Part shown: positions 60,959-62,146 of the stretch, one piece after another
Numbering within the stretch: the first letter of the stretch is position 1
Layout of the letters: every line of letters starts with the position of its first letter
Assembly (NCBI GenBank): GCA_965246945.1
Contig: CBDFFW010000001.1
Location: forward strand, 1,064,311-1,128,310
Length of the DNA stretch: 64,000 nucleotides
Direction of reading: 5' to 3'
Origin: Alphaproteobacteria bacterium
Lineage (GTDB): Bacteria > Pseudomonadota > Alphaproteobacteria > UBA11073
Made by a program: the position numbers and the translations under genes
Notes under the pieces: generated by a model
What the model was told of the DNA's origin: nothing
The model's input: only the letters and a program-made list of their open reading frames with translations
Database searches by the model: none

Positions 60959-62146
60959 TTACAGACCTTTTTCTATCAATCTCTCTTTCCATTCATTTTC
61001 ATAAACCAGATCAAAAGAAATTTCTTTGCTATCTGCCAGCAATTTAAATTCACCAATTGTCCTATTGGCATGATTGGTTAGATGCGCAAATACTTGGGCC
61101 TTATAGGCACTGTCAGGATTATCCAAATGATTGCCTTTGGTTTCCAAAAACAAATATTTGCCGTCATTATACAAAATCAAAAAGTCAGGATAGATTTTAT
61201 CTTTCTTCCAGCCCTGGACATGATATTCCGTCCCTTTGGTGCCAAGCCTGTGCCACCATTTTGTTGCCTCACTTTGATTTATATAAGCTGCAACATTGGC
61301 TTCAAGCCCATTGTAATTGCTTTTATATTGCGGCTGGAAAATGTTTTTATTTAGGCTTTGTGCAGGCTCTTCGCCAAAATTCATATAAACAGTTCTTTCA
61401 TCGCCCATATCCCAATTAAGATTGGCGAATGGTGTAGCCAGTAATTTCAAAACAATTTCATTATCGGACAATTTTTGAATGAACAGTTTTTCAGATGTTT
61501 GTAAAAGCCATTCCAGCGCATCGTCTTTAATCTGCTTAACCAAATCATGACCAGCAGCGGCAATAGCCAATTCCGTAATGCCTTTGGCTATCAATTTTTG
61601 TACAACTTCGTCCAATATCTGCTTCACGTCACCTTTTTTGCCTTTTTCCCATACTATACTAGCAACAAAGCTACCTTCAGGAAAAATTTCCTCTATAATT
61701 GTACGCAAGTTGGCAAATTCAATGTCGTCAATACTAACAAAAATTACACCATCATCCGATAATAATTCGCGCAATAATTGCAATCTCGGCCACATCATGC
61801 ACAGCCATTTGTCATGTCGTTCCAAATCTTCATTTGTCACCGGATTTGCGGATTTAGCTAACCACTCTTTCATTAACGGGCTGTTAACTTTATCGTTATA
61901 GGACCAGCCCTCATTGCCTGTATTATAGGGCGGATCGATATAGATGCATTTTATCTTGCCAGCATATTGCGGCAACAAGGCTTTCAGGGCATGCAAATTG
62001 TCGCCATGGATAATCAAATTATCATCCATGGATGGTTTGCCGTCTTTCGGCATGGATTTTTCAGGCACGATATCCAGCCCACGAAATGGCACGCTTAAAT
62101 GATGGGCATAGACATAATTCTTACCTTTAAAATCCAGTGTTGGCAT
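60959..62146 (-). CDS. Mod-like N6/N4 DNA methyltransferase N-terminal module fused to a PD-(D/E)xK-like domain; possibly degenerate
   Basis: IHGDNLHALKALLP...IYIDPPYNTGNE (motif IV) and ASIVWEK are characteristic of the N6_N4_Mtase family. No FxGxG AdoMet motif follows. The C-terminal region carries …IYPDFLILYNDGKYLFLETKG…, a PD..ExK-like pattern. AT-rich. Confidence 0.55.
   Translation of the reverse strand: MPTLDFKGKNYVYAHHLSVPFRGLDIVPEKSMPKDGKPSMDDNLIIHGDNLHALKALLPQYAGKIKCIYIDPPYNTGNEGWSYNDKVNSPLMKEWLAKSANPVTNEDLERHDKWLCMMWPRLQLLRELLSDDGVIFVSIDDIEFANLRTIIEEIFPEGSFVASIVWEKGKKGDVKQILDEVVQKLIAKGITELAIAAAGHDLVKQIKDDALEWLLQTSEKLFIQKLSDNEIVLKLLATPFANLNWDMGDERTVYMNFGEEPAQSLNKNIFQPQYKSNYNGLEANVAAYINQSEATKWWHRLGTKGTEYHVQGWKKDKIYPDFLILYNDGKYLFLETKGNHLDNPDSAYKAQVFAHLTNHANRTIGEFKLLADSKEISFDLVYENEWKERLIEKGL

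What the first reader, a model, noticed from the sequence alone, without database searches (positions are those of the whole stretch)
60959..62146. Mod-like methyltransferase lacking the AdoMet motif and fused to a PD-(D/E)xK-like domain inside an integrase-bearing AT-rich island
The N-terminal 170 aa are an unmistakable N6/N4 methyltransferase module with DPPY and the downstream VWEK. The expected FxGxG AdoMet-binding motif never appears. Instead, the C-terminal third carries …YPDFLILYNDGKYLFLETKG…, a textbook PD-x(n)-ExK nuclease pattern. The protein could be a decayed restriction-modification fragment. It could also be a chimeric defence protein in which methyltransferase-derived DNA-recognition parts target a nuclease. 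It sits between a core transporter gene and two integrase remnants.
Basis: partly seen in the sequence, partly recalled or inferred. Interest (0 to 1): 0.6.

Follow-up and report, generated by a model that had tools for sequence, protein, structure and literature searches.

The report
Deletion remnant of Type III restriction operon
This gene is what is left after a roughly 3-kb deletion joined the start of a Type III methyltransferase gene (mod) in frame to the end of its neighbouring restriction gene (res), inside a decaying mobile island; it is an ordinary gene remnant, not a new defence protein.

Summary
A 395-aa ORF (60959-62146, minus strand) has DPPY (aa 71-74), no FxGxG, and a PD...ETK motif (aa 320-337), in a low-GC island with recombinase remnants beside a VIT transporter gene.

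The two halves are not a designed chimera. Residues 1-172 are the N-terminus of a Type III Mod (76% identical to an intact 538-aa Mod). Residues 173-395 are the C-terminus of the partner Res (61% identical to residues 640-860 of an intact 860-aa Res). In 111 of 113 related loci with both pieces, they lie about 3.0-3.3 kb or more apart, as mod then res. Here they abut. About 1,000 codons are missing: the Mod TRD and AdoMet motifs and the whole Res helicase.

FxGxG is absent because in this methyltransferase class it lies about 190 residues beyond the breakpoint. PD...ExK is the ordinary Res nuclease motif, invariant in homologues.

The island carries other lesions: a truncated P4-type integrase, a second integrase scrap and a frameshifted recombinase.

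Three other independent mod-res deletion derivatives exist elsewhere, each with different breakpoints, and one is out of frame.

Most likely this is an inert or nearly inert remnant. Interest is low. One minor open point is that all the deletions end in the Res spacer, just before the nuclease domain.

The parts
61631..62146 (-). Mod-derived half of the fusion ORF (aa 1-172): N-terminal domain plus the first half of the beta-class methyltransferase domain, including DPPY at aa 71-74.
   Evidence: PADLOC MTase_III PDLC03640: aa 1-173 match profile 1-182 of 654, E 1.8e-88. 76% identity to aa 1-170 of the intact 538-aa Mod of L006. Aligns to EcoP15I Mod residues 79-233 of 644 (4zcf_A).
60959..61630 (-). 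Res-derived half of the fusion ORF (aa 173-395 plus stop): the end of the helical spacer and the complete PD-(D/E)xK endonuclease domain (P320, D321, E335, K337).
   Evidence: PADLOC REase_III PDLC03653: aa 177-391 match profile 652-879 of 883, E 2.5e-34. 61% identity to aa 640-860 of the intact 860-aa Res of L004. Catalytic residues are invariant in homologues.
61628..61650 (-). Deletion junction, GGGAAAAAGGCAAAAAAGGTGAC (W-E-K-G-K-K-G|D). It contains a short AAAAAGG / AAAAAAGG direct repeat that may be junction microhomology.
   Evidence: Read directly from the sequence. Mod homology ends at aa 172 and Res homology starts at aa 173. The microhomology idea is inference only, because no ancestral sequence is available.
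62237..63363 (-). XerC/D-like tyrosine recombinase immediately upstream of mod, split by a frameshift into an N-terminal SAM-like ORF (63013-63363) and a catalytic ORF (62237-63049).
   Evidence: Pfam Phage_int_SAM_1 and Phage_integrase. It is a single ORF in L004 (359 aa) and L005. In the window the two parts align in different frames (63363-63043 and 63019-62309).
63317..63682 (-). Small Cys-rich (zinc-ribbon-like) ORF that travels with the recombinase-mod-res module.
   Evidence: Only weak Zn-ribbon Pfam hits. Homologues sit in the same position upstream of the recombinase in L005 and L002.
63651..63998 (-). Remnant of a P4-type integrase, covering aa 79-192 of 388. It has an in-frame stop and no catalytic domain, and its N-terminus runs off the window end.
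   Evidence: Pfam Phage_int_M, E 2e-17. 51% identity to the intact 388-aa integrase of L081; the alignment shows the stop, and nothing matches aa 193-388.
60508..60636 (-). Second P4-type integrase scrap (aa 18-60 only, with a stop) between the fusion ORF and the core VIT gene.
   Evidence: tblastn with the L081 integrase, E 4e-05. The sequence LGVYPEISLTEAREAH is visible in the translation.
59729..60448 (+). Flanking core gene: VIT-family transporter, which marks the edge of the island.
   Evidence: Pfam VIT1, E 1.2e-70. GC content steps down from here.

Best explanation
The ORF is a remnant of a Type III restriction-modification operon carried on an integrative island of the form P4-type integrase, small ORFs, XerC-like recombinase, mod, res. 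A single deletion of about 3 kb (up to about 4 kb if the ancestor resembled L004) removed everything from Mod residue about 172 to Res residue about 640 and happened to restore the reading frame. The product keeps the Mod N-terminal domain and the first half of the methyltransferase fold (motif IV DPPY and the motifs just after it). It has lost the TRD, motifs X and I-III (AdoMet binding) and the C-terminal domain that contacts Res, so it can neither bind AdoMet nor recognise DNA. It keeps the tail of the Res helical spacer and an intact PD-(D/E)xK nuclease domain, but has lost both RecA motor domains, so it cannot carry out ATP-triggered Type III restriction. Shown: the origin of the two halves, the missing segments, the intact catalytic residues and the other lesions in the island. 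Inferred: that the product has no methyltransferase or restriction function, and that the deletion is evolutionarily recent, because no further decay is detectable.
For: (1) The split profile matches fit a deletion: Mod profile 1-182 of 654 and Res profile 652-879 of 883. (2) BLASTP places aa 1-172 on Mod 1-170 of 538 (76%) and aa 173-395 on Res 640-860 of 860 (61%). (3) In 57 genome-derived loci and 56 metagenome loci that hold both pieces, they lie in the same order on one strand. Most are 3.0-3.4 kb apart (metagenome median 3,264 nt). Only L001 and L098 are shorter, and in the window the gap is zero. (4) FxGxG lies at a median residue of 357 in 96 of 105 full-length Mod relatives, well beyond the breakpoint. 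No other mod or res scraps exist in the window. (5) The beta-class motif order and the Res domain order are as described for EcoP15I (PMC4490356). (6) L081 shows a near-intact cousin island with the same gene order. (7) The window's island carries three further lesions: a truncated P4 integrase with a stop, a second integrase scrap and a frameshifted recombinase. (8) Three other independent mod-res deletion derivatives have different breakpoints: P0002, P0261 and the out-of-frame L098. (9) The protein is a singleton. No identical junction was found in metagenomes. No protein carrying both halves stood out among the 150 best hits listed from 1.84 billion representatives; the only other fusion there was P0261, picked up by its two matched stretches.
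Against: The ORF is fully open. It shows no excess of substitutions at near-invariant positions (2 of 87 in the Mod part, 2 of 34 in the Res part, within the range of intact homologues). All nuclease catalytic residues are intact. These facts fit a recent deletion, but they fit continued selection on the fusion equally well. All four deletion derivatives remove almost everything between the Mod N-terminal half and the Res nuclease domain. Their right-hand breakpoints lie at about Res 640-730, in the helical spacer, and no intermediate-size deletions were seen among the loci. That is not what uniformly random breakpoints would give. The frameshift in the recombinase could be a sequencing error.
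Confidence: 0.85

Rival explanations
1. The fusion is a functional, selected protein. The Mod N-terminal domain and half-methyltransferase domain, which mediate Mod-Mod dimerisation in EcoP15I, would hold two Res nuclease domains together. That would give a stand-alone nuclease used in defence or in conflicts between mobile elements.
For: The nuclease catalytic residues are intact and the ORF is open, with no excess of damaging substitutions. Three in-frame fusions with similar content arose independently: the window ORF, P0002 and P0261. All retain the Mod N-terminal region and the complete nuclease domain, and their right breakpoints cluster in the Res spacer. The Mod NTD and MTase domains form the dimer interface in EcoP15I (PMC4490356).
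Against: The three fusions have different junctions, so they do not form one family descended from a common fusion. A fourth derivative, L098, is out of frame, and L164 is a Res tail with no Mod at all. Each fusion is a singleton or sits on a short contig. The half methyltransferase fold lacks strands beta1-beta3 and is unlikely to fold on its own. The surrounding island is visibly decaying. No PADLOC defence model other than ordinary Type II and Type III methyltransferases and Type III Res matches.
Confidence: 0.08
2. The deletion is an assembly artefact: an intact operon was collapsed or mis-joined, and the real genome carries intact mod and res.
For: The source is a single 1.79-Mb contig from an uncultured alphaproteobacterium with no second assembly to compare. 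The nearby recombinase frameshift could also be an error.
Against: A mis-join would need a long exact repeat shared by mod and res. None is seen, only a 7-8 nt A-rich repeat at the junction, and no repeats link the region. The join is in frame and clean. Comparable deletions occur in independent assemblies made with different assemblers (L001, L083, L098).
Confidence: 0.04
3. The adjacent tyrosine recombinase deletes the mod-res interior in a programmed, site-specific way, as a switch or phase variation.
For: A recombinase lies immediately upstream of mod in many related loci, including next to the second fusion in L001. Large deletions recur.
Against: The breakpoints differ in every case (Mod about 150, 170, 263 and 345; Res about 640, 666, 670 and 730), which is not what site-specific recombination produces. 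No inverted or direct recombination sites were found. A deletion cannot be reversed as a switch. The recombinase in the window is itself frameshifted.
Confidence: 0.03

Closest known systems
Type III restriction-modification systems (EcoP15I / EcoP1I type; PADLOC MTase_III PDLC03640 with REase_III PDLC03653)
   Same: Both halves derive from such a system. The Mod half has the N-terminal domain, DPPY and the following motifs, and aligns to EcoP15I Mod residues 79-233. The Res half has the C-terminal PD-(D/E)xK nuclease domain with invariant catalytic residues.
   Different: It is one ORF instead of two genes. It lacks the Mod TRD, the AdoMet-binding motifs X and I-III and the Res-contacting C-terminal domain. 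It also lacks the entire Res helicase (RecA1, RecA2 and Pin) and most of the spacer. It therefore cannot work as a Type III enzyme.
Single-chain restriction-modification enzymes (Type IIG/IIL such as MmeI; Type ISP such as LlaGI)
   Same: One polypeptide combines a PD-(D/E)xK nuclease module with methyltransferase-derived sequence. This is the resemblance behind the 'chimeric defence protein' idea.
   Different: Those enzymes have the nuclease at the N-terminus followed by a complete methyltransferase domain and a DNA-recognition domain (MmeI abstract, PMC2582602). That Type ISP enzymes also carry a helicase motor is from my own knowledge and was not checked here. In the window ORF the order is reversed, the methyltransferase is only half a domain without an AdoMet site, and there is no TRD.
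L081-type integrative island (P4-type integrase, small ORFs, XerC-like recombinase, mod, res) in uncultured Alphaproteobacteria
   Same: The gene order and orientation are the same. Identities to the window are 51% (P4 integrase), 29% (recombinase), 74% (Mod N-terminus) and 67% (Res C-terminus). Similar modules occur in L004 and L005.
   Different: In the window the P4 integrase is truncated, the small ORFs are largely missing, the recombinase is frameshifted and mod-res is collapsed into one ORF.
Other mod-res deletion derivatives (P0002 on L001, P0261 on L083, L098)
   Same: They have the same general content: a Mod N-terminal piece followed by the Res nuclease domain, with the TRD/AdoMet region and the helicase deleted.
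   Different: Every one has different breakpoints. L098 is out of frame, which leaves a truncated Mod and a separate 140-aa nuclease ORF. They are independent events, not orthologues of the window ORF.

Membership tests
Type III Mod / beta-class N6/N4 DNA methyltransferase (PF01555) | Catalytic motif IV (DPPY) | tested here: met
   DPPY at aa 71-74, aligned to the EcoP15I DPPY region.
Type III Mod / beta-class N6/N4 DNA methyltransferase (PF01555) | AdoMet-binding motif I (FxGxG) with motifs X, II and III, lying C-terminal to the TRD | tested here: not met
   No F.G.G or relaxed variant in the protein. The motif lies at a median residue of 357 in 96 of 105 full-length relatives. Pfam covers only positions 1-83 of 221.
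Type III Mod / beta-class N6/N4 DNA methyltransferase (PF01555) | Target recognition domain inserted between the two methyltransferase halves | tested here: not met
   Mod homology stops at aa 172, which corresponds to EcoP15I residue 233, whereas the TRD is residues 263-384.
Type III Res (helicase-nuclease subunit) | SF2 helicase/ATPase core (RecA1 and RecA2, ResIII domain) | tested here: not met
   There is no ResIII or helicase hit in Pfam or NCBIfam. Res homology starts at Res residue about 640 of 860. No helicase remnant exists anywhere in the window.
Type III Res (helicase-nuclease subunit) | C-terminal PD-(D/E)xK endonuclease domain | tested here: met
   REase_III profile positions 652-879 of 883 are matched. 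P320, D321, E335 and K337 are invariant in the homologue alignments. The fold itself could not be confirmed: the AlphaFold model had a mean pLDDT of 48.
Type III restriction-modification system (as a working system) | Separate, complete mod and res genes that encode a Mod2Res1 complex | tested here: not met
   A single 395-aa ORF replaces mod (about 540-560 aa) plus res (about 860-870 aa).
Single-chain RM enzymes (Type IIG/IIL, Type ISP) | Complete methyltransferase domain and TRD in the same chain as the nuclease, with the nuclease N-terminal | tested here: not met
   The order is reversed, only half a methyltransferase domain is present, and there is no TRD.
Conserved fusion-protein family (a true Mod-N::Res-C family) | The same junction shared by diverged homologues | tested here: not met
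   The protein is a singleton cluster. A degenerate junction pattern has 0 hits in metagenomes. The other fusions, P0002 and P0261, have different junctions.

The most novel reading that the evidence does not exclude
Minimal Mod-N-terminus::Res-nuclease proteins arise repeatedly and are retained because they do something useful, for example as a dimeric stand-alone nuclease or as a decoy that interferes with related Type III enzymes. This would explain two things: the deletions always end in the Res spacer just before an intact nuclease domain, and the window ORF shows no decay.
Probability: 0.07. Interest if true: 0.5.

Novelty: new member of a known kind. Interest (0 to 1): 0.15.

Why it matters
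It matters mainly as a caution. A protein that looks like a methyltransferase without an AdoMet site fused to a nuclease can result from a single in-frame deletion across two adjacent genes of a known operon. Automated annotation would probably name it from its only Pfam hit, the methyltransferase domain; relatives in the database are labelled 'site-specific DNA-methyltransferase'. The case also documents a family of integrative islands in uncultured Alphaproteobacteria (P4 integrase, XerC-like recombinase, Type III R-M) and shows how they decay. If the minority reading were true, and these fusions are selected, it would show a route by which restriction-enzyme wreckage is recycled into new nucleases. 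Nothing here requires that reading.

Tried and rejected
(1) Source genome. Exact-sequence look-ups for the fusion, SdhA and the recombinase fragment found nothing on record. The source genome is also not among the GTDB species representatives. No conspecific strain or empty-site comparison was therefore possible. SdhA places the host only as an uncultured alphaproteobacterium, with best hits at 84-86% identity.

(2) Search with the Res half alone. It returned only 10 short proteins and no full-length Res. The full-length Res relatives came from locus translations instead.

(3) Structure. AlphaFold2 on the fusion with a 22-sequence alignment gave a mean pLDDT of 48 and pTM of 0.35. That is too poor for a fold search, so none was run.

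(4) PDB. A profile search with the Res-C alignment gave only spurious hits to designed helical repeats. No solved relative of this nuclease domain is detectable by sequence, and the EcoP15I nuclease domain is disordered in 4ZCF.

(5) Local signals. Promoter and terminator scans were at background level and the repeat scan found nothing meaningful; no tRNA gene lies in 55-64 kb. No att sites or tRNA integration site can be named within the window.

(6) Stand-alone Res-C genes. P0127 is cut off by its contig end, and P0129 starts only 155 nt from its contig end, so neither is informative. I rejected them as evidence for a stand-alone family.

(7) Rearrangement instead of deletion. Rejected, because no other mod or res fragments exist in the window.

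Full report

Yes. The minus strand carries an ATG-initiated ORF of 395 aa at 60959..62146.
- It contains DPPY at aa 71-74, VWEK at 165-168, PDF at 320-322 and ETK at 335-337.
- No FxGxG-like pattern occurs anywhere in it, even in relaxed form.
- Pfam sees only the first 83 of 221 positions of the N6_N4_Mtase model (E 2.1e-12).
- The gene lies next to a VIT-family transporter gene (59729-60448, E 1.2e-70) and downstream of recombinase fragments.
- The segment 60449-64000 has 41.1% GC against 47.6% for the rest of the window. That is lower than any equally long stretch elsewhere in the window.

**2. What the two halves are**

The PADLOC profiles gave the key result.
- Residues 1-173 match positions 1-182 of a 654-position Type III Mod profile (E 1.8e-88).
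- Residues 177-391 match positions 652-879 of an 883-position Type III Res profile (E 2.5e-34).
- So the protein is the beginning of Mod joined to the end of Res.

I fetched 79 related loci from reference genomes and 80 from metagenomes, plus a few more loci found through individual proteins, and mapped both halves onto them.
- In 57 genome-derived loci and 56 metagenome loci that contain both pieces, they lie in the same order on the same strand.
- Most are 3.0-3.4 kb apart (metagenome median 3,264 nt). Only L001 and L098 are shorter. This is the ordinary mod-res operon spacing.
- L006 has a clean intact operon: mod 538 aa and res 871 aa, with overlapping stop and start. L004 has mod 564 aa and res 860 aa.
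- The window protein aligns over aa 1-172 to Mod 1-170 of L006 (76% identity) and over aa 173-395 to Res 640-860 of L004 (61% identity).
- The join falls between codons 172 and 173, within GGGAAAAAGGCAAAAAAGGT|GAC.
- About 370 Mod codons and 640 Res codons, roughly 3 kb, are missing. No trace of them is present elsewhere in the window.

**3. Why the 'odd' features are expected**

Type III Mod enzymes are beta-class methyltransferases.
- In EcoP15I the TRD (aa 263-384) is inserted between motifs IV-VIII (N-terminal) and motifs X and I-III (C-terminal). A C-terminal domain contacts Res (PMC4490356).
- The window's Mod piece aligns to EcoP15I Mod residues 79-233. It therefore ends before the TRD.
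- In 96 of 105 full-length relatives the FxGxG motif (mostly FAGSG) lies at a median residue of 357, about 190 residues past the breakpoint. Its absence is a truncation, not a novel methyltransferase design.

EcoP15I Res consists of RecA1, RecA2, a helical spacer (aa 620-810) and then the endonuclease domain.
- The retained 223 residues correspond to the end of the spacer plus the nuclease domain.
- P320 and D321 are conserved in 68 of 68 sequences. E335 and K337 are conserved in all 67 sequences that have a residue there. In nearly all loci the matching ORF is 800-960 codons long.
- A 77-sequence alignment gives the same result and adds E282 and a WWH motif as invariant.

**4. Context: a decaying island**

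L081, a 575-kb contig from another uncultured bacterium, carries a nearly intact cousin of this island. Its order is P4-type integrase (388 aa), small ORFs, a second tyrosine recombinase (341 aa), mod (560 aa) and res. Res is called in four pieces there, possibly because of assembly frameshifts.

The window has the same order on its minus strand, but damaged:
- The P4 integrase is represented only by aa 79-192 (63998-63651). It has an in-frame stop and no catalytic domain.
- The recombinase is a single ORF in L004 and L005, but here it is split between two frames near 63019-63043.
- mod-res is collapsed into the fusion ORF.
- A second P4-integrase scrap (aa 18-60, with a stop) lies at 60636-60508, between the fusion and the VIT gene.

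The recombinase, and in some loci the small Cys-rich ORF, lies directly upstream of mod in L001, L002, L004, L005, L010, L016, L048 and L081. The module is therefore a conserved mobile unit. The host is an uncultured alphaproteobacterium (best SdhA hits 84-86% identical). No conspecific genome was available.

**5. Is the fusion a family or a one-off?**

- The protein is a singleton cluster.
- A codon-degenerate pattern across the junction has no match in the metagenome collection.
- In the word-indexed search, only P0002 (449 aa, 570 bits) covered both halves. The next hit dropped to 343 bits and was Mod only.
- In the index-free search of 1.84 billion representatives, the top hits cover either query 1 to about 170 or query 173-394. 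Only P0261 (364 aa) combined both.
- P0002 is Mod profile 1-274 plus Res 688-879. P0261 is Mod 1-156 plus Res 691-851. The window is Mod 1-182 plus Res 652-879.
- None of these can be derived from another by further deletion, so they are independent events.
- The metagenome loci yielded a fourth derivative, L098. There Mod runs to about residue 345 and then stops, and the Res nuclease core follows as a separate 140-aa ORF in another frame.
- L164 is a Res tail preceded only by AT-rich non-coding DNA.

The existence of out-of-frame and Mod-less versions is what random decay predicts.

**6. What does not fit perfectly**

The window ORF shows no more deviations at near-invariant columns than intact homologues do: 2 of 87 in the Mod part and 2 of 34 in the Res part. 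Either the deletion is recent or the ORF is still constrained, and a singleton cannot separate these.

All four deletion derivatives remove nearly the whole interval. The remaining gaps are 0, about 66, 259 and 533 nt out of about 3,260. Their right-hand breakpoints lie at about Res 640-730, in the spacer. No intermediate-size deletions were seen among the loci with both anchors. Under uniformly random breakpoints this would be unlikely.

Possible reasons:
- products that retain partial motor or TRD segments are selected against;
- the spacer is a mutational hotspot;
- ascertainment effects that I could not fully quantify;
- least likely, the minimal fusion is positively selected.

I record this as unexplained.

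**7. Mechanism and verdict**

The best-supported account is an in-frame deletion remnant (confidence 0.85).
- It cannot bind AdoMet or recognise DNA, because motifs X and I-III and the TRD are absent.
- It cannot perform ATP-dependent Type III restriction, because there is no helicase and no complete Mod partner.
- Its nuclease domain is intact at the sequence level, so residual non-specific activity cannot be excluded, but nothing indicates it.

Rivals:
- a selected stand-alone nuclease (0.08);
- an assembly artefact (0.04);
- recombinase-programmed deletion (0.03), which the differing breakpoints and the absence of recombination sites count against.

**8. Comparison and novelty**

The ORF derives from a Type III R-M system but fails the defining tests for a functional Mod, a functional Res or a working system. 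It also differs from single-chain enzymes such as MmeI in domain order and completeness (PMC2582602). It is a new instance of a familiar thing, a degraded R-M operon on a degraded island. Interest is low (0.15). The only mildly interesting residue is the recurrent breakpoint pattern.

**9. Dead ends**

- The PDB profile search was uninformative.
- Promoter, terminator, repeat and tRNA scans gave nothing above background.
- Exact-sequence look-ups failed to retrieve the source record.

Noticed in passing
L001, L083, L098, L164 and window 60959-62146: Independent large deletions in related Type III mod-res operons all end in the Res helical spacer (about Res 640-730), just before the nuclease domain, and remove nearly the whole interval. 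No intermediate-size deletions were seen among the roughly 110 loci that hold both anchors. This may reflect a hotspot, selection against partial products, or ascertainment.
   Followed up: partly
L081 1898-10633; L004 4461-10666; L005 about 6394-14214; window 60508-63998: A conserved mobile module recurs in uncultured Alphaproteobacteria and relatives: P4-type integrase, small ORFs including a Cys-rich zinc-ribbon-like one, a second XerC-like tyrosine recombinase directly upstream of mod, then Type III mod-res. The role of the second recombinase is unknown.
   Followed up: partly
L004 7363-8091: An extra 242-aa ORF sits between mod and res in the Rickettsiales MAG operon. This makes its mod-res spacing about 0.7-0.9 kb longer than usual. 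It was not characterised.
   Followed up: no
L081 8046-10633: In this otherwise intact cousin island, res is called as four consecutive ORFs (180, 214, 271 and 210 aa). These are either real frameshifts, meaning decay in progress, or long-read homopolymer errors.
   Followed up: no
window 47700-52000: This is a second low-GC stretch (about 41.6-42.3% against a window mean of 47.2%). It includes a 633-aa ORF (47723-49624) with no Pfam match at E<=1e-5 and may be another acquired segment.
   Followed up: no
window 16179-18359 (-): A 726-aa ORF with no Pfam family at E<=1e-5, located next to the ribosomal protein S1 gene.
   Followed up: no
window 43319-45739 (-): An 806-aa ORF with two copies each of the D-Ala-D-Ala ligase N- and C-terminal domains. 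It appears to be a tandem-fused double Ddl.
   Followed up: no
window 55674-58543 (+): A run of overlapping genes lies just upstream of the island. The first ORF carries several histidine-rich motifs of the kind seen in membrane desaturases (read by eye from the translation). It is followed by a 266-aa and a 374-aa ORF. None was run against any family library, so their functions are unassigned.
   Followed up: no
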